A stretch of 64,000 bases of DNA from Naegleria gruberi (Eukaryota): the NCBI GenBank assembly GCA_000004985.1, contig GG738887.1; one strand, given 5' to 3'. The notes under the pieces are model-generated. The model was not told the origin of the DNA. It saw only the letters and a program-made list of their open reading frames with translations, and made no database searches. The translations under genes were made by a program, and so were the position numbers. This document shows, one piece after another, positions 55-29,235 of the stretch. The stretch's first letter is position 1, and each line of letters begins with the position of its first letter.

Positions 55-1080
55 TTATTTGAAAAATGATAATTGATGATTGACTTGATCACAAACGATA
101 AGTTCACCACTCTTTCTGTTAAGGCAACATCCCTGTGGATATTGCAATTTTTTGTTTGTGCATTTGGCATTCAAGTTGGAAATTAGTGTGAAATTTTGGT
201 CAATTGAAAGGACGAAGATTTCACAACTAAAATGTTCAATGATAAAGAGCTGATTACTTGATTCATCAATTTCTAATCCTCTAAACTTGTTTCTTGGTTG
301 ATTAAATGGATGAGGTAGTAATTGACAGGAGCTGTCGTCAATCAAGAATAATCTGCCACATCTACAATCATTAACTATCATTCTTTCACTGTTCGGGAGC
401 ATCAATGCATAACACGGTTCAATTAATAACCCATTATTAAACGTTGGCGTTTTGGGTCCAAAGTTAATTTCCTTAAATGGCTCTCCGTTTATGGAATGCA
501 CAAATAAAATTCTATATTTGGAAGGATCACAAAGAATAATTACATTCTCATCTCTGCTCTTTCCATATTTAAGACTCATCCCAATCTGGCATCCAAAATG
601 ATCCCAATCATCATCTCCAAATTCATTAGCAGTTCCAGAAATCCAAATTAATTTCAATCTTGAATTGAGAATTTCCAATAAATCCAATTTGTAAACACAA
701 TAATCATCACAGGAAACAAGAATTGCATCTTGTGATCTTCCACATCCATTCCTTTCCACTAGAACGTTTTCAACCATTTTTGGAAATATTGCACTTGTTA
801 AATATTTCAAATTTTGGAGGGAAAAAATCTGAACTCTATGGTTCATGCTATCTGAAACTAGAATGCAATTATGATTGTAGGATATATCAACATTGTTTGG
901 ACAATCGAATTGAGTTTCTTCTCCTCCACAAACTTGATATTCGCCTAATTCTCTTATCAACTGAAAATTTAATGAAAATGGAATTGTGTCGTCTTGTTGG
1001 TTTTGAAACTTTTTCTTAAGCAAAGGGCTTGAAAAGTTGCAATCGAGAGCAACGACAACAGACTGATCATGTTGATTCAT
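55..1080 (-). CDS. NHL-repeat (beta-propeller) protein
   Basis: Continuous minus-strand ORF with a TAA stop at 55-57. The track start at 1095 is TTG; the first ATG is at 1078-1080 in an A-rich context (aattaaaaATGaat). There are repeated ~40-aa units with the NHL signature, e.g. ILVSDSMNHRVQIF, IILCDPSKYRILFV, MIVNDCRCGRLFLID and LIVCDQVNHQLSFF. Confidence 0.55.
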   Translation of the reverse strand: MNQHDQSVVVALDCNFSSPLLKKKFQNQQDDTIPFSLNFQLIRELGEYQVCGGEETQFDCPNNVDISYNHNCILVSDSMNHRVQIFSLQNLKYLTSAIFPKMVENVLVERNGCGRSQDAILVSCDDYCVYKLDLLEILNSRLKLIWISGTANEFGDDDWDHFGCQIGMSLKYGKSRDENVIILCDPSKYRILFVHSINGEPFKEINFGPKTPTFNNGLLIEPCYALMLPNSERMIVNDCRCGRLFLIDDSSCQLLPHPFNQPRNKFRGLEIDESSNQLFIIEHFSCEIFVLSIDQNFTLISNLNAKCTNKKLQYPQGCCLNRKSGELIVCDQVNHQLSFFK

Positions 1081-1371
1081 TTTTAATTCTTTCAAATTGT
1101 TTCGAATAGTTGAATTTGAAACTTCTTATATTTGGAATTTGAAGGTTACCTTCAATTTGAACATTTTTGAGTTTGAATTCAAAGCAGTAACACCCAATAC
1201 AACAGTTTACAACCAATCTACAACATGTTAGAATTTCTTCATTTCAACCCATCTTCGGATGCACTTTTCGACATTTTTCCTTATCCTCACCAAGATTTTT
1301 AAACTAATCTCTGTGAAACATTTAAAACAGATGAGCCCAGCACCAAATCCTCTTCAAATCAAATCAAAAAA

Positions 1372-2322
1372 ATGTCTTCAGTTATCGTTCTTGGAGCTAA
1401 TGGTTATATTGGCATTGGTGTTTCCCAATCTTTACAGAGAAATGGTTTTTCAGTGTATGGCACTGTTCGATCAGAAAAACATGAGAAATTCCTGTTGGCG
1501 AATGAAATTACTCCACTCGTCATTCCAAAAGTTACATCCTTGTTTAGTGATGAGAAATTTGGCAAGATTTTGGAAAGGACAAGTGCAATTATTGATTGTA
1601 TTGGGCTGACTGATGAAACTGACAAGATTGTGCAATTGGTGAAGGAACATTCTGCTGACAGATTGAAAAGGAAACTTTCCAAGTTGGTTTTCGTATTTAC
1701 TAGTGGAATTATGACTTATGGAAAGGCCTCTGCTGAACTATTCCTGGATGAGAATGTGAGACCAGAGCCAACTCATGCATGGGTTGAGAAGAGAAGAGAT
1801 GTTGAATATGAATTATTGAATGGAGAGTTTACCCATTTGGATACTGTTGTAATTCGTCCTGGTTTCGTATATGGTAAGAGTGGTGGTGAAATTTTCAAAG
1901 ATTTTTTCAATCCAAAAATTACTTCAGATGGTAAATTGACAATTATTGGATCTCCTAAAAAGAGATGGAGTTGGGTTCATGTAGATGATTTAGGAGAAGC
2001 CTATACTAAGGTTCTAACAGTTGGACGAAACTTAGTTTCTGGTCAATTGTTCAACATTGCAAATCCAAATGATTATCCAACCTATGATCGTGTCAGAATT
2101 GAAATTGCCAAACAAACTGGATGGCAACCAAACTCTGAGAATGAAACTGATTCACTTCTTATTGAGCCAGTTCCACAAGAAAATGCTGGATTGGTTGTTT
2201 GGGAGAATACAGTGATGATTAATCCGAGAAAGGCCATTGAAGTATTGGGTTGGAATCCAAAACATTTGAATTTTATTGAAAAGATTCATGTTTATTATCA
2301 ATCATGGAAGAATTCTCAATAA
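1372..2322 (+). CDS. NAD(P)-binding Rossmann-fold protein, NmrA-like / atypical SDR epimerase-dehydratase family
   Basis: ATG at 1372 follows aaaaaaa. The N-terminus has the glycine-rich dinucleotide-binding motif VIVLGANGYIGIGV. It is a 316-aa single exon ending in TAA at 2320-2322. Family assignment is from the motif plus overall length and composition. Confidence 0.65.
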   Translation: MSSVIVLGANGYIGIGVSQSLQRNGFSVYGTVRSEKHEKFLLANEITPLVIPKVTSLFSDEKFGKILERTSAIIDCIGLTDETDKIVQLVKEHSADRLKRKLSKLVFVFTSGIMTYGKASAELFLDENVRPEPTHAWVEKRRDVEYELLNGEFTHLDTVVIRPGFVYGKSGGEIFKDFFNPKITSDGKLTIIGSPKKRWSWVHVDDLGEAYTKVLTVGRNLVSGQLFNIANPNDYPTYDRVRIEIAKQTGWQPNSENETDSLLIEPVPQENAGLVVWENTVMINPRKAIEVLGWNPKHLNFIEKIHVYYQSWKNSQ

Positions 2323-2678: not shown

Positions 2679-5600
2679 ATGAATATGAGGATTCTTCTCT
2701 TCCTTCTCTTATTGGCACTTCTCTCCCCAAGTATTTCCTCCACCTCATCATCATCATCATCATCAACACTCCTTAATCGCATGTGTAGTAGTGATGATAG
2801 AGCTCCCTCTTTCAATCAGAGAGATTTGTGTTCAGCATCAAATAATTCAATGATTACTCCCTCCTGGTGCACTCGTCATAATCCATTCTCTTCGGTTCCT
2901 TATTTATTTAGTGATAATAACTTTCCGAGTTGGTTAAATGTTGAGGATGGAGCCATTTGTAATACGGCCAATCCCTACGTGTTCAGTTTTATTAATGGAA
3001 CAATTAGATATTCTGCTCCGTATGCTCTCGATGGAAATGCACAAGTATTGCCATCATCATCTTCATCTTCATTGAGTTATTCTGCAATGATTTCACCAAG
3101 AGACAAGTGTAGATTTATATCAAAGATTAATACGATTGAGTTTAGTGGTGAATTTGGATTCAATAGTAGTACTACGATTGAAGCTAAGAGATATCTGGTT
3201 TTGGGATTAGTTTCTGGACAAATTATTCTAATGAATTTCAATAAGGATGATGAGATTTACTTGTTGGGAAATACTGAAGATAAGACAAATATTAGAACAT
3301 TGGAAACTTTGACAAATGGTACTGATTTATATGTTTCGACTGTTTCATTTGGTAATTCAGTTTCTCTATTTTATGGAAATTCTTCAAATATTGCTTCTAT
3401 TCAACGTTGTGGAAACATTTTACAATTTGAATCGAGAAATCAATTTCCACCAGATGTCAAATTAATTACTCACGATGGAAAAATATACGCCTCTCTCATT
3501 GTTTACAATAGTACCGAAATGTGCTATTTCATTTACTTTTATCAACTAGATGGTTGCTCATTCACAAAACAATTCCAGTACAAGGTTAAGGAAAAGTGGG
3601 AATCTAATCTGAAATTCAAAATTTCCACTCAAGTTGGTGGATTTGACAATGTTCTCACCACTAACAATTTTGTATATTCGAGAACTATACTCCAATTCTC
3701 CACAAGAAAACATGTGAAAATCATTGAAATGACCACACAAGATATTGAAATGGATCTGAGTACCAATGACAATTCCACATTTTATGTTGCCACTGATGAG
3801 GAAGAAATTACAGCATCTACCATAGCATATGAATACATTAGAAGGATTGACTTTACAAAATCCTCATGCGCCAAAATTTATGCCAACCCAGCTCAAGGTG
3901 CAAACTTGATTCTTTCACTCAAGAGGAGAAATAGCAATTATTTGAAAGCAAGAAATTTATTAGAGTTTGGAAATTATCCATTCTATAGATATTCGAATAG
4001 AACTTATAATAATCCTGTTGGAAGAACAGTTGAGTGCAATGTTGCTGATGGTACATTTTATGATGCTTTAACACAGAGTTGTACTCATGCTTTTGAGGTA
4101 GAGAATGTGATTGGAGACATTTCTATTGGAGAAGAAATTCAAGAGCTTTCGAGTAGATTCCATGATGCTCCACTCAATTATTCACAATACTTTGAAGTTG
4201 ATTTGACTGAAAAACTTGACACCAAAGATATTTGTAATAATATTGCTCAATTTCCAGCACTTGCTTCCTTATGTGAAGAAAATTTAAATCAAACAGAGTG
4301 TGCATTTGATGCATTTACCATGTTTGGAAACAAGTTCCTTCCTAAAATATTAGCAGATTTTTGGGTAAATCAAATTTACATTTCTAAAACTGGAAAGGAG
4401 GTTTTGGTTTATGGTTTACAACAAGAAATGTGTTCACTCAATGGTCTTTATATGGACAATTATAATACGATTAGTTTAATGGGAGAATCTACATATATGG
4501 ATATCACAAGGAATGCTCAACACATGTTTGTAACAGTGTCCAGAGAACGATGGGAGTTACAATCCCTTACCAGATTTTACAATATTTGTAAACAATTAGA
4601 AGTAGATCCAGAAGATCCATTTTTGAAACCATTTGCTGAGCAATGTAAGGCAAATACACCTTCTCCAGTCACTCTTAATCAATTTGGACAATACACCTCA
4701 AGTTGTTTCAGTGGAATGAGTTGCCCATCTCTAAAACATGTGGAAATTGATATTATACCTGAAGGATTTTACACAACCAGACCAAATGTTGTCAAAGAAT
4801 GTGAGGAAAAATACTTTTGCTTACAGGGTGTGAGACAGCCATGTCCAATTGGATTTTATTGCCCAAACAAGGGAATGACTAAACCATTGCCATGTAAATT
4901 CTCCACTTCACATAATTTACACAAACGAGGTCTTTCATGGGAGGAACCAAAGGGATCAGATACTTGCTACTCACAAGCCAACAGTTTACCTCAACCTTGT
5001 TTGAATGGTACTCTATGTATTACACCTTATTTTCCACCTATTCCTATTTCTCCTGGTCTTTATTTGGAAGGAAACAAGATTAAAGAATGTCAATTGGGAG
5101 ATTATTGTAATTTGGGAAGATATATAGGTGAAAATCAAAATAGCTCAATATTGGCATGTCCTGAAAACACCTATTGTGAAGAACCCTCTACAATGGAACC
5201 TTCATTGTGTATTCCAGATGAAAAGTTATCATTATATTGCCCACCTGGAACTACATTCAGAAGACCATGTAATAAGGGATTCTATTGCCCAAAGCCAAGT
5301 GTTGAAGTTCCTTGTAAATTGACTCAATATTGTGAGGAGGGATCCTATATTCCTGAAACATGTCCAGCTGGTTATTACTGTCCATCACCATCTGAGAAGT
5401 TGATTTGTCCAAAGGGATTTTATTGTGTTGTTGGCAGTGTTTATCCTACCAATTGTCCGACATTTAGTATTTGTCCAGAGGGAACTAAGGCCTATGAAGA
5501 TTATGCTCTTGGTGTCTTGATTGACATTTTAATTATCATGGGAGTAATTTTGACATTTAAAATTTATTCGTGGACTTCTAATTGTTATATTCGATATAAG

Positions 5601-7731
5601 GCAAAGAAACTCAAAAACCAACAAGATTTGGAATTACTAACCATAGATGAAAATGATGCTGAATATATTGTTGTGGAACAGAAAACTCAAAAATTGACAC
5701 TTTCACAATGTATGCAAGGACTTTACAAGGACATTGGAGTGGAAATTTCATTTGAGGATTTGTCAGTTGACTTGAAAACAAGTAACAGAAGAATTTTGCA
5801 TAATCTTAATGGTAAATTTGGCGCTGGTAGATTGACCTGTATTATGGGTCCCAGTGGAAGTGGTAAGACCACCCTATTATCAGCCATTAGTGGTAAAGCA
5901 TCCTATGCCAACATTTCAGGTTCTATCAGAATTAACGGAGAAATATCATCCATGAAGAAATTCAAAAATATTTGTGCATTTGTACAACAAGAAGATTGCA
6001 TGCACAGAGAGTTGACTGTGGAAGAGTGTATTTATTTCAGTGCTAGAACAAGATTGGCCTCTCAAGTGAGCCAGAAAACTGTGGAATCCATAGTGAATGG
6101 AGTGATTCAAATATTGGACTTGGAAAATGTGAGACATTCTGTAATTGGAGATGAGAATAAGAGAGGAATATCTGGTGGTCAGAGAAAGAGGGTCAGTATT
6201 GCTATGGAGCTAGTAGCTTGTCCTTATGTTTTATTTTGTAAGTTTTAACATTTTCGAAAATGAAAGACTTATTAATTTTTCAAATATAGTGGACGAACCT
6301 ACATCTAGTCTCGATGCATACAGTAGCTTTGAAGTGTCTAAGGCAATGAAAGATATTGCCTCGAGTGGAATTACAGTTGTTGCAGTTTTGCATCAGCCAA
6401 GATTTGAAATTTTTGAAATGTTTGACGATGTGGTCTTGCTTGGAAATGGAGGTAGGATTGTGTATATGGGACCTTCCTCTGATGCTTTGCCTTACTTTGA
6501 GGAGAAACTCAATTTGGAGCCACCACCAAGAGTGAATCCGAGTGATTTCTTTTTGGATGCAATTTATGATCCTAAATTGGCATATGAATCACAGAAAAAG
6601 ATTAACGGAAAACAAGTTCAACAATATACATGCAAGGAAATGTTTGATGTTTGGGAAAATAATTATAAGAAACTTGACGAATTTAATGGAACCGATTTTT
6701 CCAAATTAGTGATGGAAGAGAAGGCAAAATCTCAGAATCCTCTCATTCATTTCTACATGAACATTAATAGATCATTCCTATTGAAGATTAGAAACATTTT
6801 TGGATTTTTCATGGATTGCCTATTGGTATACGTTGCTGGACTAGCTCTTGGATTGACTTTCCTCAAAGATGCCTATGTTGGACCTCTTCCTGAAGACATG
6901 ATTGACTCGTGTCCAGCAGCCATGAGAAAAATCTGTGAATATCCACTCAACAATCCAATCATCAACATGGCAAGTACCATTCCACTTGCTTTAGGATTGT
7001 GTGCAGGTATGTCCTCACTGACAACATTCGGTTCCAGACAAGAACAATTAATTTTCAAAAAGGAAAGAGAATCTGGACTCTCAGTTCTTGCCTATTTCAG
7101 TTCTAAAATGTTGGAACAATTGCCAAACATTCTTCTTGGACCAATTGTCTTTCTTTCCATTTTCTTTTCACTCTACTCTCCAAGAGCAACATTTGGAGAA
7201 TATTATTTGGTTCTCTTTTTAATGCATTTCACAACATTTGGATTGGGAAGTTTGGTGAGTGTTGTTGTACCTTTGGATTTGATTCAATTGGCAACTGCAG
7301 TTTCAATTCTAGTTTCTCAATTGGTTAGTGGTTCTAAACCAACTCTTCCACAAATGAAAAAGATTATTCCACCTCTGTTTTGGATTAGTTGCATTTCGTA
7401 TATTCGATATGCCCAGGAAGCACTTTACCTCATTGAAATCAAATATTATAAGGACATTTTTGACATTAGTTCATCATTGGAAATGTTTGATTATCATTTA
7501 GAGGATTTGGATTATTGTATCTTTATGATTCCAGTCTTTGGAATTGTTTTCAGATTATTAACATTGATAGTTTTGTATCAGAAGAGCGACGATTCATTGT
7601 GGAATACTTGTTTAATGTTTATTTCTTATTATTCGAATTTTGATCATTTTAAAACTGGCATGGTTTCAATGTGGAGAAGAATACAAATGGTAATGATATG
7701 GAAAGGTCATGAAAAAGAAGGATTATTGTAA
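2679..7731 (+). CDS. ABC transporter, G-family-like half transporter (NBD-TMD) with an N-terminal ~920-aa Cys-rich extracellular domain, two exons
   Basis: The CDS is join(2679..6237,6290..7731). It opens with a signal peptide MNMRILLFLLLLALLSPSIS and a poly-Ser tract from (TCA)7. A long N-glycosylation-rich ectodomain carries CP-x-G-[FY]-YC repeats such as CPIGFYCPNKG, CNKGFYCPKPS and CPAGYYCPSPSEKLICPKGFYC. A predicted TM helix GVLIDILIIMGVILTFKIY precedes the NBD. The NBD has Walker A GPSGSGKTTLL and the ABC signature ISGGQRKRVSIAMEL. Splicing the 52-nt intron restores the canonical Walker B reading ..YVLF-L-DEPTSSLD. An H-loop VLHQP follows, then a multi-helix hydrophobic domain in exon 2. 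Stop is TAA at 7729-7731. Confidence 0.8.
2745..2765 (+). repeat. (TCA)7 trinucleotide repeat encoding poly-Ser in the ABC transporter signal/linker region
   Basis: The repeat tcatcatcatcatcatcatca is read directly from the sequence; in frame it encodes SSSSSSS. Confidence 0.9.
6238..6289 (+). other. Intron (52 nt, GTAAGT...ATAG) of the ABC transporter gene
   Basis: The donor is gtaagt at 6238-6243 and the acceptor is atag ending at 6289, with AT-rich content between. Without splicing the frame hits a stop at 6246-6248 and the Walker B motif is lost. With splicing the LDEPTSSLD motif is continuous and in frame. Confidence 0.8.
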
Positions 7732-7954: not shown

Positions 7955-9070
7955 ATGAAGATATTCATTCTGCTACTAGTGCTGACAACAGTTGTCATTC
8001 ATGGCCAAACAACATCGGTTCATGATTGGGAGAAGAAACAAAATATGCTCACCAAGAGAAGTGACCTTTCGGCTCAAACTATTGGAAACTTGATTTATTT
8101 GACTGGTGGATGTACTTCTAATCAACCAATAGCAAAAGATGCCACTTGTCCATCAATCACCAATTCAATGGAAATTTACAATCCACAAACTAATTCATTT
8201 ACTTTTGGAAAAGCAATGCCTAGGCCAAGATATAGACACACTACTGTTGCTATTCAAAATAGATATTTATTTGTGATTGGTGGAAGAGATTTGAATGAGA
8301 ATATTATTACCCAAGTGGATGTATTCGATACTGTTAATGGAAACTGGACGATACATAATGCTACGTTGACTTCTGACTGTTGTTCTGACTCTATTGCTTT
8401 CGTATTGAAGGATAGCAATGGAAATGAGAATATTTACTTACCTGGTGGATATTACGCCAATTACACAACCTCAGGAAAAGTTTTACAGTTGACTACCAAA
8501 AATGGAGTTTATTCTGGAACATTCCAATCAGGTTTAGTTTCAGATATGAATGTCAAAAGAGGTGATTCCATGACATTAACCTATAATAATAAGGCCTATG
8601 TAATTGGTGGATTTTTGGAAGATAATTTTTGTAAACCAATTACAACTGTGGAAGTATACGATTCCTCAACTAATAAGTGGACAATTACATCACCACTTTC
8701 ACATGAGAGAGCTGATGGTGCTGCTATCATGGTTGGTTCTGCATTATTTGTTTTGGGAGGAGAATCTAAGGATAAATCATGTAATGTTTCATTACCTGTC
8801 AGTGATGTTGAGAAATTTGACACTGCTAGCGGGAAATGGAGTGATTTTGTGGCTCTTCCAACAGCTCGTTTTAGACAAACTGGTGAAATTGTCAACAATG
8901 TCATGTATGTGTTTGGTGGACAAATTGAAATTGAGATAGCTCAGCAATATTCAGTTTTGGATTGGACCTATGCTTACAATTTCACAGATTTTGTAAAGAT
9001 TTCTGCAGCCAACTCGCAAATAATTTCATGGATATTTGTTTTCTCATTACTTTTCATTCTAGTAGTATAA
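7955..9070 (+). CDS. Secreted or GPI-anchored kelch-repeat beta-propeller protein
   Basis: ATG at 7955 follows aaaaaaa. There is an N-terminal signal peptide (MKIFILLLVLTTVVIHG) and several N-x-S/T sites. Repeated kelch-type blades carry the GG motif and aromatic spacing: YLTGGCT, YLFVIGGRD, IYLPGGYY, AYVIGGF, LFVLGGES, MYVFGGQ. The C-terminus is hydrophobic (ISWIFVFSLLFILVV), as expected for a GPI-attachment signal or membrane anchor. Confidence 0.6.
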   Translation: MKIFILLLVLTTVVIHGQTTSVHDWEKKQNMLTKRSDLSAQTIGNLIYLTGGCTSNQPIAKDATCPSITNSMEIYNPQTNSFTFGKAMPRPRYRHTTVAIQNRYLFVIGGRDLNENIITQVDVFDTVNGNWTIHNATLTSDCCSDSIAFVLKDSNGNENIYLPGGYYANYTTSGKVLQLTTKNGVYSGTFQSGLVSDMNVKRGDSMTLTYNNKAYVIGGFLEDNFCKPITTVEVYDSSTNKWTITSPLSHERADGAAIMVGSALFVLGGESKDKSCNVSLPVSDVEKFDTASGKWSDFVALPTARFRQTGEIVNNVMYVFGGQIEIEIAQQYSVLDWTYAYNFTDFVKISAANSQIISWIFVFSLLFILVV

Positions 9071-9313: not shown

Positions 9314-11317
9314 ATGAAGAGATCAACAATTCTCTCCGCGCTCATCATGATGCTGCTGAGTTTTGCAGTCGTGATGGTTTGTGCCGGAACATTAAATAAT
9401 TTGGCTGATGAATTATTAAAGAATGGAAATTATGTTAGAATGGAAAGCGAGAGAGTCAATAGTAGAGCATCTAAAAGTATTGTACCAAAGGGATGGAGAG
9501 TAGTTGAAGGAAAATTTGAAGATCAACATGTTCATCTTACATTTGCATTGAAGAATCAAAATATTGAAAAGTTGAAAGATTTATTGTTGAAGATTTCTGA
9601 TCCAAAGCATCCACAACATGAAAATTATCTTACCACTGAACAAGTTGCTAGAATGACTACTCCTACTGATGAACACAAGAGTATTGTTTTGAATTATATC
9701 AAGTCTATTCCAGGAGCTCTCCTTGTCAAGGTTTCCAAGCATGAAAACTTTGTTTCTGCATTGATGCCACTCTCTTCTGTCAACAAGTACTTTAAAGCTG
9801 ACATGAAAAAGTTCACTCATGAAATTACTGGAGCTGTTGCTTTTAGATCCGAACAAGGATATGCATTGCCACAAAAGTTGGCTGAAGCTGTTAATTTGGT
9901 TTCTGGTGTTTATGGTTTCCCAACTATGAATGCCAAGTTTGATAAAAAGCTTGAATCTAAGAGTAGTCAAAGAGTCACTCCACAATTCATTTGGGCTAGA
10001 TACAATGTCACCTTCCCAAGCACTGTTAGTCCAAAGTCAACTCAAGCTGTTGCTTCATTCCTCCAACAATACTATTCCAATGCTGATTTGCAACTCTTCC
10101 AAAATACTTTCAAGCTTGAAAGACAAACTCCAAAGGTTATTGGACCAAATGATGAATCCAATCCTGGTGTTGAAGCTTCTTTGGATATTCAATATTTGTA
10201 AGTTTTTTCAACACGGTTATTTACCAACATTTCATTGTTTCAATTAATTAATTGGAAATAATTGTGGAATAATTTGGACTTGTTGGATAAAATTTTAAAA
10301 TAATACAGGATGGGTGTTGGTCAAAAGATTAATACTACCTTTGTTTCCACTGAAGGTGTCAATCCAATTACTCACCAAGAAAGATTTGTTCATTGGGTTA
10401 TTGGTCAACAAGAATTAGGAGATTCTTCTGCTTGGGTTCACTCTGTTTCATATGGTGATATCGAATATCAAGCTACCGTTGCTTTGGCTGATCAATTAGA
10501 TGCTGAATTCATCAAATTTGGTGCTACTGGTAGAACTGTTTTAATTGCTTCTGGTGATGATGGTGCTAGATGTAATGATAATGGAAATGCCTTTGAACCT
10601 GAATGGCCAACCTCTTCCCCATGGATTACCTCAGTTGGTGCCACTGAACCATCTGATTCTGATTATGAAACCACAACTAGCTGGTCTGGAGGTGGCTACA
10701 GTAATTATTATGATCGTCCAAAGTATCAAGATGAAGCTGTCAAGGCCTACCTTGCCTCAAATGCTGCTCCTCCAACTTCATACTTTAATGTTTCTGGTAG
10801 AGCTTATCCTGATGTTGCTGCATGTATGTATTTTATATTTCTAATCTATATCAATATCATCATACCAATAATTATTTTTCAATTATTTTCAATTAATTAT
10901 AGTTGGTGTTAGTAAGTAGTATTAATAATTATTCAATTTTATTAACTTGTTATCAGACTATCAAGTTTATGTTAATGGAATGATTCAAAATGTTGCTGGT
11001 ACCTGTAAGTAGTTAACATTTCACTTCTTTCAATAATCAACATTTCAATAGCTGCCTCAACACCTTGTTTCGCTGGTATTGTTTCCTTGATGAATGATGC
11101 TCGTTTCAGAGCTAACAAGAAACCACTCGGTTTCCTCAATATTTGGCTCTATCAACATGCTGGCAAGACTTCTGGTGCTTTCTATGATATTGTTAAGGGT
11201 AACAATGCTCACGGTGCTTGTCAATATGGTTTCTCTGCTACTAATGGATGGGATCCAATCTCAGGTTGGGGTGTTCCAAATTATAAGATTTTGCAACACT
11301 TGGCTCTCCTTAAATAA
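9314..11317 (+). CDS. tpp1: Tripeptidyl-peptidase I-like sedolisin (peptidase S53) preproenzyme, four exons
   Basis: The CDS is join(9314..10197,10309..10823,10957..11004,11052..11317), 570 aa with stop TAA at 11315-11317. It has a signal peptide and a pro-kumamolisin-type prodomain. Splice junctions were chosen to keep frame and reproduce motifs I recall from TPP1-family proteins: EASLDIQYL|MGVG across intron 1, AYPDVAA across intron 2, and the catalytic-serine motif GT|SASTP across intron 3. Other conserved blocks are VHSVSYGD, LIASGDDGA, SGGGYSN, PLGFLNIWLYQ and SGWGVPNY. Introns are 111, 133 and 47 nt with GT..AG ends (gtaagt, gtatgt, gtaagt). The match is from memory and was not database-checked. 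Confidence 0.8.
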
Positions 11318-29185: not shown

Positions 29186-29235
29186 NNNNNNNNNNNNNNN
29201 NNNNNNNNNNNNNNNNNNNNNNNNNNNNNNNNNNN
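29186..29235. other. Assembly gap (50 N)
   Basis: A run of exactly 50 n characters, the conventional placeholder for a gap of unknown size between contigs. Confidence 1.

What the first reader, a model, noticed from the sequence alone, without database searches (positions are those of the whole stretch)
2679..7731. ABCG-type half transporter fused to a ~920-aa secreted Cys-rich ectodomain with an extra pre-NBD transmembrane helix
The ORF is continuous from a signal peptide through about 920 aa of N-glycosylation-rich extracellular sequence. That sequence ends in tandem C-P-x-G-[FY]-Y-C repeats reminiscent of ephrin-receptor-like / GCC2_GCC3 cysteine-rich modules. A single TM helix (GVLIDILIIMGVILTFKIY) follows, and only then a canonical NBD (Walker A, ABC signature, spliced Walker B) and a multi-helix TMD. 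The implied topology is ectodomain outside, one TM, NBD inside, TMD. That would allow a ligand- or adhesion-type ectodomain to be coupled to an ABC pump, which is not the textbook ABCG layout of N-terminal cytosolic NBD followed by TMD. No stop or frame break separates the ectodomain from the transporter, so this is not two adjacent genes, unless an unrecognised intron plus an alternative start exists.
Basis: partly seen in the sequence, partly recalled or inferred. Interest (0 to 1): 0.65.

Follow-up and report, generated by a model that had tools for sequence, protein, structure and literature searches.

The report
Naegleria ABCG pump with propeller ectodomain
This is a real, single Naegleria gruberi gene for an ABC half-transporter that carries a large outside-facing domain and an extra membrane helix ahead of its ATPase; that layout is a conserved but little-studied branch of the ABCG family, found from yeast and plants to protists, so it is not a one-off oddity.

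Summary
Window 2679..7731 (+) encodes one 1666-aa protein from two exons. A 52-nt GT..AG intron (6238..6289) sits inside the Walker B codon.

The order of parts is: signal-peptide-like N-terminus, about 915 aa of ectodomain, one TM helix (residues 943-963), a cytosolic linker, an intact NBD, and an ABCG-type TMD.

The organism is Naegleria gruberi, not a dictyostelid. The identical model is already public as NAEGRDRAFT_70994 / XP_002673932.1 / UniProt D2VPU9, named only 'predicted protein'.

The fusion is not an annotation artefact. The same continuous arrangement occurs in a Naegleria-like metagenome contig, N. fowleri, Willaertia, Acrasis and a Rigifila transcriptome ORF. In shorter form it occurs in plant ABCG24/WBC30-type proteins, fungi, a sponge, stramenopiles and others. 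The yeast relative Adp1 is described in the literature with this layout.

N. lovaniensis annotates two genes, but only because 471 nt (TM helix, linker, NBD start) are deleted there with a frameshift.

New here: residues ~147-620 are predicted to form a seven-bladed beta-propeller, followed by a Cys-rich stalk. The juxtamembrane part of the stalk is conserved across eukaryotes.

The Ephrin_rec_like/GCC2_GCC3 assignment and the 'N-glycosylation-rich' claim are not supported.

Verdict: new member of a known kind, modest interest.

The parts
2679..7731 (+). Whole CDS of NAEGRDRAFT_70994 (two exons, 1666 aa, stop included)
   Evidence: 100% identical to public model P0001
2679..2750 (+). Signal-peptide-like N-terminus (residues 1-24)
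   Evidence: Hydropathy peak of 1.98 at residues 1-24. The R4 / Leu-rich core / SPSISS pattern is read directly from the sequence. The N. lovaniensis ortholog has an equivalent hydrophobic segment before the conserved region. No signal-peptide predictor was available.
2751..3116 (+). N-terminal Cys-containing segment (residues 25-146). Poorly modelled. Conserved only in Naegleria, Willaertia and N. fowleri.
   Evidence: pLDDT below 50 for model residues 1-121. Alignments to P0002, P0125 and P0277.
3117..4538 (+). Predicted seven-bladed beta-propeller (residues ~147-620) with a helical insertion (~499-559) before the last blade
4539..4778 (+). Connector (residues 621-700): two helices (RERWELQS..FYNICKQL, DPEDPFLKPF..QC) plus the first Cys pairs. 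Together with the last propeller blade it starts the widely conserved region.
   Evidence: nearly invariant N588, C613, C632, C652 and C658 of the ectodomain alignment
4779..5495 (+). Cys-rich stalk (residues 701-939; 10% Cys over residues 721-939)
   Evidence: All Cys are conserved among four heterolobosean sequences.
5319..5495 (+). Juxtamembrane Cys module (residues 881-939): CPAGYYCP-x6-CPxGxYC-xxGS-xxP-xxC-x5-CPxG[ST]. Conserved from protists to plants and fungi.
   Evidence: Seven invariant Cys in 24 sequences. Present in 42 of the 120 best NBD-TMD relatives. AF2 pLDDT 76-93.
5505..5567 (+). Extra transmembrane helix (residues 943-963), N-out / C-in
   Evidence: Hydropathy 2.44. Acidic N-flank and K/R-rich C-flank. 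AF2 models one long helix over residues 942-990.
5568..5768 (+). Cytosolic linker (residues 964-1030). Variable in length between relatives, always by whole codons.
5769..6510 (+). Nucleotide-binding domain (residues ~1031-1260; the range includes the intron)
   Evidence: Pfam ABC_tran 3e-25. Walker A, Q-loop, signature, Walker B and H-loop all intact.
6238..6289 (+). 52-nt GT..AG intron inside the codon that follows 'VLF' of Walker B
   Evidence: The intron is at the same position in L002 and L003 and is absent in N. lovaniensis.
6751..7584 (+). ABCG-type transmembrane domain (residues 1341-1618)
   Evidence: Pfam ABC2_membrane and ABC2_membrane_7. Hydropathy. AF2 pLDDT above 90 and Foldseek target-normalised TM-score 0.82-0.86 to ABCG2, ABCG25, ABCG1 and ABCG5/G8.
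7585..7731 (+). C-terminal tail (residues 1619-1666) and stop codon
   Evidence: low-to-moderate pLDDT

Best explanation
What it is. This is the Naegleria gruberi gene NAEGRDRAFT_70994: one gene with two exons, encoding a 1666-aa type-I-anchored ABCG half transporter.

Order of parts:
- signal peptide
- ~120 aa of poorly modelled, Cys-containing sequence
- seven-bladed beta-propeller (residues ~147-620)
- two-helix connector
- ~240-aa Cys-rich stalk, whose last ~60 residues form a juxtamembrane module conserved across eukaryotes
- one TM helix (943-963, N-terminus outside)
- ~70-aa cytosolic linker
- catalytically intact NBD
- six-helix ABCG-type TMD

Family. It belongs to the pan-eukaryotic ABCG branch that holds plant ABCG24/ABCG28/WBC30-type proteins and, according to the literature, yeast Adp1. 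In that branch an exoplasmic Cys-rich domain and an extra TM helix precede the NBD.

Shown here: the gene structure, the domain order, family membership of the NBD-TMD, conservation of the fusion in other organisms, and the predicted folds.

Inferred:
- Like other ABCG half transporters, it works as a dimer. ATP binding and hydrolysis at the two NBDs drive export (or flopping) of a small, probably lipophilic or amine substrate to the exoplasmic side. That side may be the cell surface or a vesicle lumen.
- The two ectodomains stand over the exoplasmic mouth of the TMD dimer.
- The conserved stalk is the part functionally tied to the pump, for example as an exit vestibule or substrate hand-off, or for assembly and sorting.
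- The propeller is a lineage-restricted add-on that binds a macromolecular partner or acceptor.

The confidence given applies to the identity and architecture; the inferred functional steps are much less certain (roughly 0.3-0.4).
For: Gene structure.

Identity with the public model.

ABCG membership:
- Pfam ABC_tran and ABC2_membrane above cut-off, with the NBD before the TMD.
- All catalytic motifs intact.
- AF2 model with pTM 0.75. It superposes on ABCG2, AtABCG25, ABCG16, ABCG1 and ABCG5/G8 with target-normalised TM-scores of 0.82-0.86.

Branch assignment:
- The best named relatives are 'ABC transporter G family member 24' and 'white-brown complex homolog protein 30'.
- 42 of the 120 best relatives have a Cys-rich region and a single TM helix ~90-280 aa upstream of Walker A.
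- The juxtamembrane module has seven invariant Cys across protists, plants and fungi.

The fusion is real:
- One uninterrupted frame runs from ectodomain through TM helix to NBD in L002, with the intron at the same site.
- Linker indels are in-frame.
- Full-length relatives exist in N. fowleri (1726 aa, aligned end to end at 31% identity).
- Acrasis has a relative with the shorter ectodomain. The Willaertia model runs from ectodomain through TM helix to NBD but lacks the TMD.
- A Rigifila ramosa transcriptome ORF of 1575 aa has the same order of parts.
- Dozens of 1300-2000-aa relatives exist in metagenomes.

Exoplasmic location of the N-terminal part:
- Hydrophobic N-terminus.
- 10% Cys in the stalk against 2.1% in residues 966-1666, which hold the linker, NBD and TMD.
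- Positive-inside flank after the TM helix.

Literature for the layout in Adp1: PMC2848647, PMC9426558.
Against: - There are no transcript or protein data for N. gruberi itself. The single mRNA is inferred from ORF continuity and from relatives.
- Signal-peptide cleavage and topology rest on sequence rules, not on a predictor or an experiment.
- N. lovaniensis, the closest sequenced relative found, carries the locus as two open reading frames without the TM helix. The anchored fusion is therefore dispensable or recently lost there, unless that assembly is wrong.
- The substrate, the transport direction, the dimer partner and any role of the ectodomain are untested.
- The ectodomain model rests on a shallow alignment of 24 sequences, and its first ~120 residues are unreliable.
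- Model coordinates could not be inspected, so contacts between stalk and TMD are not shown.
- Membership of yeast Adp1 in the same branch was taken from the literature and from my own recollection of its architecture. It was not tested by alignment here.
Confidence: 0.8

Rival explanations
1. Mis-fused gene model. A gene for a secreted Cys-rich protein and an ordinary ABCG half-transporter gene lie head to tail, are transcribed separately, and the continuous frame is fortuitous.
For: N. lovaniensis annotates two genes 58 nt apart: an 891-aa ectodomain with no Pfam hit, and a 612-aa ABC protein. No N. gruberi transcript data were available.
Against: - 1186 codons run without a stop through the junction.
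- The junction region codes for a conserved Cys module, a TM helix and the first NBD strand. These are conserved, with in-frame indels, in L002, P0006 and Acrasis.
- A transcriptome ORF in Rigifila has the same order of parts.
- N. fowleri models are fused.
- The N. lovaniensis split is a 471-nt deletion plus frameshift. Its second 'gene' starts at a Met inside Walker A (MGPSGSGK) and lacks the first NBD strand.
Confidence: 0.04
2. Receptor-coupled pump. The propeller-stalk ectodomain is a ligand or adhesion receptor. Its occupancy is transmitted through the extra TM helix and linker to switch the ATPase on or off.
For: - The TM helix continues as a long helix into the cytosol, residues 942-990.
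Against: - The fold matches are generic seven-bladed propellers at 5-12% identity. Cytosolic WD40 proteins score highest.
- The cytosolic linker is poorly conserved and variable in length, which is unexpected for a signal-transmitting element.
- No ligand, partner or signalling motif was found.
- The part co-conserved with the pump is the stalk, not the propeller.
Confidence: 0.15
3. Endomembrane loader. The protein sits in secretory, lysosomal or contractile-vacuole membranes with the 'ectodomain' in the lumen, and it loads a metabolite into the organelle, as proposed for Arabidopsis ABCG28 on pollen-tube secretory vesicles.
For: - It falls in the same ABCG branch as proteins named ABCG24/WBC30.
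- The ABCG28 paper (title cited in PMC9409143) places that protein in growing pollen-tube tips. The vesicle localisation and the polyamine hypothesis are from my own knowledge of that paper, which could not be read.
- Topologically, a lumenal position is equivalent to an extracellular one.
Against: No sorting motif was tested and no localisation data exist. The large, Cys-rich, sequon-bearing propeller fits a surface location equally well. This rival concerns location only and is compatible with the main explanation.
Confidence: 0.3
4. Decaying or non-transport relic. The ABC module no longer hydrolyses ATP, and the protein serves only as a membrane anchor for the ectodomain.
For: The N. lovaniensis copy is disrupted.
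Against: Walker A, Q-loop, signature, the Walker B glutamate and the H-loop histidine are all intact. The NBD-TMD half is 63% identical to the N. lovaniensis copy P0003. The NBD/TMD model has high confidence.
Confidence: 0.03

Closest known systems
Plant ABCG24 / ABCG28 / WBC30-type half transporters (e.g. Salvia 'white-brown complex homolog protein 30', P0039; Gossypium P0047)
   Same: - Same order of parts: signal-peptide-like start, Cys-rich exoplasmic region ending in the module CxxGxYCP...CxxGxYC..GS..P..C.....C, one TM helix, cytosolic linker, NBD, ABCG TMD.
- They are mutual relatives of the NBD-TMD (E ~1e-80, 30-32% identity).
   Different: - The plant ectodomains are only ~270 aa and lack the propeller and connector.
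- Their cytosolic linker is longer (~200 aa).
- They lack the Cys pair in the first exoplasmic TMD loop.
Saccharomyces cerevisiae Adp1 (YCR011C) and fungal 'Group VII / clade V' ABCG proteins
   Same: Adp1 is described as having one NBD between two membrane-spanning regions, with a large soluble N-terminal domain of EGF-type Cys repeats (PMC2848647; PMC9426558). Fungal relatives found here (chytrids, Mortierella, Sordariomycetes, 830-1100 aa) show the same Cys module and TM helix before the NBD.
   Different: No Pfam EGF hit in the Naegleria protein. The Naegleria ectodomain is three times longer and has a propeller. Adp1 itself was not aligned here.
Long-ectodomain ABCG relatives in protists: N. 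fowleri CAG4708565.1 (1726 aa), Willaertia magna KAL9658626.1, Rigifila ramosa transcript ORF (1575 aa), and many metagenomic proteins of 1300-2000 aa
   Same: Same complete architecture. They share the region from the last propeller blade to the TM helix (residues ~570-940), and the closest ones share the whole ectodomain.
   Different: All are uncharacterised. Sequence upstream of residue ~570 diverges quickly outside Heterolobosea. The N. fowleri protein is only 31% identical and is probably a paralogue.
Canonical ABCG half transporters with solved structures (ABCG2, ABCG1, ABCG5/G8, AtABCG25, AtABCG16)
   Same: Same NBD-TMD fold: target-normalised TM-score 0.82-0.86 at 20-26% identity. Same catalytic motifs.
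   Different: They start with the cytosolic NBD and have no signal peptide, ectodomain or extra TM helix.
ABCA1 / ABCA4-type transporters (from my own knowledge)
   Same: A related TMD fold class that carries large exocytoplasmic domains over the exit side of the pump, where exported lipid is handled. This is the nearest functional analogy for an ectodomain on this kind of TMD.
   Different: Their ectodomains are loops inserted between TM1 and TM2 of each TMD, not an N-terminal type-I-anchored domain, and they are unrelated in sequence and fold. This comparison was not tested here.
Semaphorin/plexin sema domains, integrin alpha and LGI1 EPTP (extracellular seven-bladed propellers followed by Cys-rich PSI/EGF modules), and Chlamydomonas mastigoneme proteins
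   Same: A predicted seven-bladed propeller with an insertion, followed by a Cys-rich stalk, all on the exoplasmic side.
   Different: The similarity is at fold level only (5-12% identity, target-normalised TM-score <=0.6). No Sema, PSI or FG-GAP Pfam hit was found. Cytosolic WD40 propellers match as well or better.

Membership tests
ABCG (white/WBC-type) half transporter | Reverse order: one NBD on the N-terminal side of one TMD | tested here: met
   ABC_tran at 1040-1192 precedes ABC2_membrane at 1341-1569
ABCG (white/WBC-type) half transporter | Intact ABC ATPase motifs (Walker A, Q-loop, signature, Walker B with catalytic Glu, H-loop) | tested here: met
   GPSGSGKT at 1057, VQQED at 1102, ISGGQ at 1164, VLFLDE at 1184, VLHQP at 1219. 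Walker B needs the 52-nt splice.
ABCG (white/WBC-type) half transporter | ABC-2 / ABCG-type TMD fold | tested here: met
   Pfam PF01061 at 46.9 bits (cut-off 26.9) and PF19055 at 131.7 bits (cut-off 22.7). The AF2 model matches ABCG2, ABCG25, ABCG1 and ABCG5/G8 with target-normalised TM-scores of 0.82-0.86.
ABCG (white/WBC-type) half transporter | Functions as a homo- or heterodimer | not testable with these tools
   Only monomer prediction was available.
ABCG24/ABCG28/WBC30 - Adp1-like branch (ectodomain-bearing ABCG) | Closest named relatives of the NBD-TMD belong to this branch | tested here: met
   Hits named 'ABC transporter G family member 24' and 'white-brown complex homolog protein 30' at E 1e-72 to 1e-97. 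No phylogenetic tree was built.
ABCG24/ABCG28/WBC30 - Adp1-like branch (ectodomain-bearing ABCG) | Cys-rich exoplasmic region ending in the conserved juxtamembrane module, then a single TM helix upstream of Walker A | tested here: met
   Module at residues 881-939 and TM helix at 943-963, 94 aa before Walker A. Seven invariant Cys across 24 sequences from protists, plants and fungi.
ABCG24/ABCG28/WBC30 - Adp1-like branch (ectodomain-bearing ABCG) | Cleavable signal peptide, so that the N-terminal region is exoplasmic | tested here: inconclusive
   Hydrophobic N-terminus, Cys bias and a positive-inside flank all agree. No signal-peptide or topology predictor and no experiment were available.
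ABCG24/ABCG28/WBC30 - Adp1-like branch (ectodomain-bearing ABCG) | Direct homology to S. cerevisiae Adp1 | not tested
The link rests on PMC2848647 and PMC9426558 and on fungal relatives with the same layout.
Ephrin_rec_like / GCC2_GCC3 (PF07699) | HMM match at or above the gathering score (23.1 bits) | tested here: not met
   No hit for the whole protein or for the isolated stalk, even at E<=10. None of 24 clade members hits it; their weak hits are Lustrin_cystein, Dickkopf_N and TNFR_c6, all below cut-off. Two remote multi-repeat relatives reach 22.3 and 21.7 bits, so a distant relationship is possible.
EGF-like domain (as reported for Adp1) | Pfam EGF-family match | tested here: not met
   No EGF hit for this protein. 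Only EGF_Mua-3 matches, at E 0.009, in 2 of 24 relatives.
WD40 / Kelch / sema / FG-GAP propeller families | Sequence-profile match to a named propeller repeat family | tested here: not met

The most novel reading that the evidence does not exclude
The ~1300-2000-aa relatives could form an undescribed, widespread protist subfamily of ABCG half transporters. These include N. gruberi, N. fowleri, Willaertia, Rigifila and many metagenomic sequences. In this reading, a sema-like beta-propeller on a conserved Cys-rich stalk acts as a true receptor or acceptor that gates or receives transport. That would physically couple recognition of an external macromolecule (prey surface, matrix or mating partner) to ATP-driven export.
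Probability: 0.12. Interest if true: 0.6.

Novelty: new member of a known kind. Interest (0 to 1): 0.3.

Why it matters
No member of the ectodomain-bearing ABCG branch (yeast Adp1, plant ABCG24/28/WBC30, the protist forms) has a solved structure. For Adp1 no function is known (PMC2848647), and I found no described role for the ectodomain in any member.

This analysis shows two things. The juxtamembrane Cys module is conserved across eukaryotic supergroups together with the pump. Heterolobosea and other protists additionally carry a confidently predicted propeller. Together these give a concrete structural hypothesis and good candidates for cryo-EM or genetics.

For genome annotation, it also shows that the N. 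gruberi model is right and that the split N. lovaniensis models come from a deletion or an assembly error.

It does not overturn anything known about ABC transporters.

Tried and rejected
- Pfam on the whole protein, and on the stalk and N-terminal region separately at E<=10, gave nothing for the ectodomain.
- A profile of the juxtamembrane module searched against PDB sequences gave only a chance hit, a chitinase at E 3.7.
- The word-indexed protein search with the ectodomain found only the self hit and N. lovaniensis. The exhaustive HMMER search was needed to find the family.
- I considered the two-gene reading because of the N. lovaniensis annotation, and rejected it after reading the DNA.
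- I considered PF19055 as a marker for the branch, and rejected it. It also hits full-size PDR proteins (Citrus ABCG37) and is reported to match soluble regions (bioRxiv 10.1101/2022.07.08.499254).
- The AFDB Foldseek library was not available.
- The ABCG28 PNAS paper was not held.
- No paper mentions the locus tag or accession.
- Searches for Naegleria ABCG literature and for ABCG24/28 N-terminal descriptions returned nothing relevant.
- Model coordinates are not exposed, so stalk-TMD contacts could not be measured.
- dN/dS was not attempted. The only ortholog with DNA is ~50% identical in protein, so synonymous sites would be saturated.
- The third word-indexed protein search was left unused. 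It would not have brought yeast Adp1 into a 120-row list.

Full report
**Observation**

On the + strand, ORFs 2679..6248 and 6226..7731 overlap in different frames. The sequence at 6238..6289 (gtaagt...atatag, 52 nt) is a plausible intron. Removing it joins '...MELVACPYVLF' to 'L' and 'DEPTSSLD', which restores Walker B. The result is a 5001-nt CDS of 1666 aa with no internal stop.

Hydropathy shows a hydrophobic N-terminus (residues 1-24) and one strong helix at 943-963 (ALGVLIDILIIMGVILTFKIY). A cluster of helices follows between 1355 and 1618.

Pfam finds ABC_tran at 1040-1192, and ABC2_membrane / ABC2_membrane_7 at 1341-1616. It finds nothing upstream.

Walker A, Q-loop, signature, Walker B and H-loop are all intact.

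The stalk (residues 721-939) is 10% Cys, against 2.1% in residues 966-1666 (linker, NBD and TMD). The helix is flanked by acidic residues on the N-side and by IRYKAKKLK on the C-side. Both features fit an N-out/C-in type-I orientation.

So the description is correct at the stated coordinates. Two details fail:
- N-glycosylation sequons are not enriched (12 observed, 10.9 +/- 3.0 in shuffles).
- The strict C-P-x-G-[FY]-Y-C motif occurs only three times. Seven looser C-x2-G-x2-C copies are present.

**Source organism and public record**

The window is Naegleria gruberi, not a dictyostelid. The 1666-aa product is identical to the public model XP_002673932.1 / EFC41188.1 / NAEGRDRAFT_70994 / UniProt D2VPU9, annotated only as 'predicted protein'. 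No paper in the held library mentions it.

**One gene or two?**

The closest relative found, N. lovaniensis, annotates two genes 58 nt apart. One is an 891-aa protein with no Pfam hit and the other is a 612-aa ABC protein.

The DNA shows otherwise:
- N. gruberi residues 41-874 and 1032-1619 align to that locus. Residues 875-1031 (the last Cys repeats, the TM helix, the linker and the first NBD strand) are absent. The two flanks meet at L001:12814/5 in different frames.
- The annotated second 'gene' starts at the Met of ...CIMGPSGSGK, inside Walker A.

This is therefore a secondary 471-nt deletion with a frameshift, or an assembly error. It is not an ancestral two-gene state.

Independent support for the fusion:
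- A Naegleria-like metagenome contig (L002) has the end of the ectodomain, the TM helix, the linker and the NBD in one uninterrupted frame. Its intron is at the same Walker B position.
- In an alignment of four heterolobosean sequences, every Cys of the stalk and the TM helix are conserved, and linker indels are whole codons.
- N. fowleri has models of 1549 and 1726 aa. The longer one aligns with the N. gruberi protein from residue 46 onward through the whole ectodomain, TM helix and NBD into the TMD, at 31% identity.
- Willaertia magna and Acrasis kona have the same order of parts.
- A complete ORF of 1575 aa from the Rigifila ramosa transcriptome has ectodomain, TM helix (851-871), Walker A (965) and TMD on one assembled transcript.

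**How common is the layout?**

A search with the NBD-TMD half returns relatives that are mostly 800-1250 aa long. Those with names are called 'ABC transporter G family member 24' or 'white-brown complex homolog protein 30'.

Of the 120 best, 42 have a Cys-rich region and a single TM helix ~90-280 aa before Walker A. They come from:
- plants (Salvia, Gossypium, Psilotum)
- fungi (chytrids, Mortierella, Sordariomycetes)
- a sponge (Sycon)
- a foraminifer and a dinoflagellate
- Picozoa, Corallochytrium and Andalucia
- stramenopiles and a green alga

Their last ~60 exoplasmic residues form one conserved module, CPAGYYCP-x6-CPxGxYC-xxGS-xxP-xxC-x5-CPxG[ST], with seven invariant Cys in 24 diverse sequences.

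[quoted passage not shown] The non-textbook layout is therefore the rule for a known, pan-eukaryotic, poorly studied ABCG branch.

**The large ectodomain**

An exhaustive HMMER search with residues 1-944 gave 1153 hits at E<=0.001. Conservation falls into layers:

| Residues | Found in |
|---|---|
| ~40-330 | Naegleria, Willaertia, N. fowleri and a few metagenomic proteins |
| ~310-570 | about 18 of the proteins listed |
| ~570-940 | about 58 of the proteins listed, many of 1300-2000 aa |

Many of the proteins in the last layer have Walker A and a TMD at their C-terminal end. All eight tested with Pfam have ABC_tran plus ABC2_membrane after 870-1370 Pfam-less residues.

The Cys module alone also occurs in tens of copies in giant proteins, for example a 4710-aa Blastocystis protein.

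Reading the strands, six blades span residues ~147-495, followed by a helical insertion and a seventh blade at ~563-620. Two helices and the Cys-rich stalk come next. The first ~120 residues are not reliably modelled.

**The Cys repeats**

Neither the protein, nor its isolated stalk, nor any of 24 clade members matches Ephrin_rec_like (PF07699). The weak sub-threshold hits are to Lustrin_cystein, Dickkopf_N and TNFR_c6. A profile of the module finds nothing in PDB sequences.

Two remote multi-repeat relatives reach 22.3 and 21.7 bits against the 23.1-bit cut-off.

**The transporter half**

An AF2 model of residues 702-1666 was built on a 40-row alignment (pTM 0.75). Its pLDDT is above 90 over the NBD and TMD. 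It models the extra TM helix as one long helix covering residues 942-990.

It superposes on ABCG2, AtABCG25, AtABCG16, ABCG1 and ABCG5/G8 with target-normalised TM-scores of 0.82-0.86 at 20-26% identity. No solved structure includes an ectodomain of this type.

**Mechanism**

Shown: the topology-relevant sequence features, an intact ATPase, the ABCG fold, and conservation of the stalk together with the pump.

Inferred from what is established for ABCG half transporters:
- It dimerises, and ATP-driven NBD closure expels a small, probably lipophilic or amine substrate to the exoplasmic face.
- Two ectodomains then sit above the exit.
- Because the juxtamembrane module is conserved wherever this branch occurs, while the propeller is lineage-restricted, I consider the stalk the part tied to pump function. 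It could form an exit vestibule or hand-off site, or serve assembly and sorting. The propeller would be an added binding platform.
- A Cys pair in the first exoplasmic TMD loop (residues ~1381-1415) is conserved in the protist forms but not in plants. It is a candidate docking site for the stalk. This is speculation, since model coordinates could not be inspected.
- Whether the exoplasmic side is the cell surface or a vesicle lumen is open.

**Verdict**

The finding is real and the single-gene reading is well supported. However, the gene model is already public and the layout belongs to a known ABCG branch.

What is added here:
- the correct organism
- the explanation of the N. lovaniensis split
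- the pan-eukaryotic juxtamembrane module
- the propeller prediction
- the existence of many long-ectodomain relatives

Novelty: new member of a known kind. Interest: 0.3.

Noticed in passing
window 29186-29235 and 30365-64000: The window holds real sequence only up to 30364. The rest (33.6 kb) is N, and there is a 50-N gap at 29186-29235.
   Followed up: yes
L001 12,700-12,900 (N. lovaniensis PYSW02000022.1): The ortholog lacks the 471 nt that encode the last Cys repeats, the TM helix, the linker and the first NBD strand, and it is frame-shifted at the junction. It is therefore annotated as two genes (C9374_004976 and C9374_004977). Both halves are still open reading frames, which points to a recent deletion or an assembly error.
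   Followed up: partly
window ~6871-6975 (residues ~1381-1415): The first exoplasmic loop of the TMD is extended and carries a Cys pair (..SCPAAMRKICEYP..). The pair is conserved in P0006, Acrasis, N. fowleri and Rigifila, but absent from plant WBC30-type proteins.
   Followed up: no
P0123, P0126, P0128, P0162 (relatives, not in the window): The same Cys-rich module occurs as tens to a hundred tandem copies in giant proteins without an ABC part. Examples are a 6346-aa protein with 34 matched stretches and a 4710-aa Blastocystis protein with 103. Two of the multi-repeat relatives tested, P0128 (2322 aa) and P0162 (1218 aa), give near-threshold Ephrin_rec_like hits.
   Followed up: partly
window 6238-6289; L002 ~1673-1704; L003 88-128: The intron that interrupts the Walker B region sits at the same codon position in two Naegleria-like metagenome contigs. 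It is absent from N. lovaniensis.
   Followed up: partly
window 7955-9070 (+): The downstream neighbour encodes a 371-aa Kelch-repeat propeller (Kelch_1, E 4e-36). It has a signal-peptide-like start and a hydrophobic C-terminus, so it may be a surface-anchored propeller protein.
   Followed up: partly
window 9314-10912 (+): A sedolisin-type peptidase gene (Pro-kumamolisin activation domain, E 2e-25) appears to be split by at least one intron between the ORFs 9314..10201 and 10310..10912.
   Followed up: no
window 55-1095 (-) and 1372-2322 (+): The upstream neighbours are an NHL-repeat protein and an NAD-dependent epimerase/dehydratase family protein.
   Followed up: no
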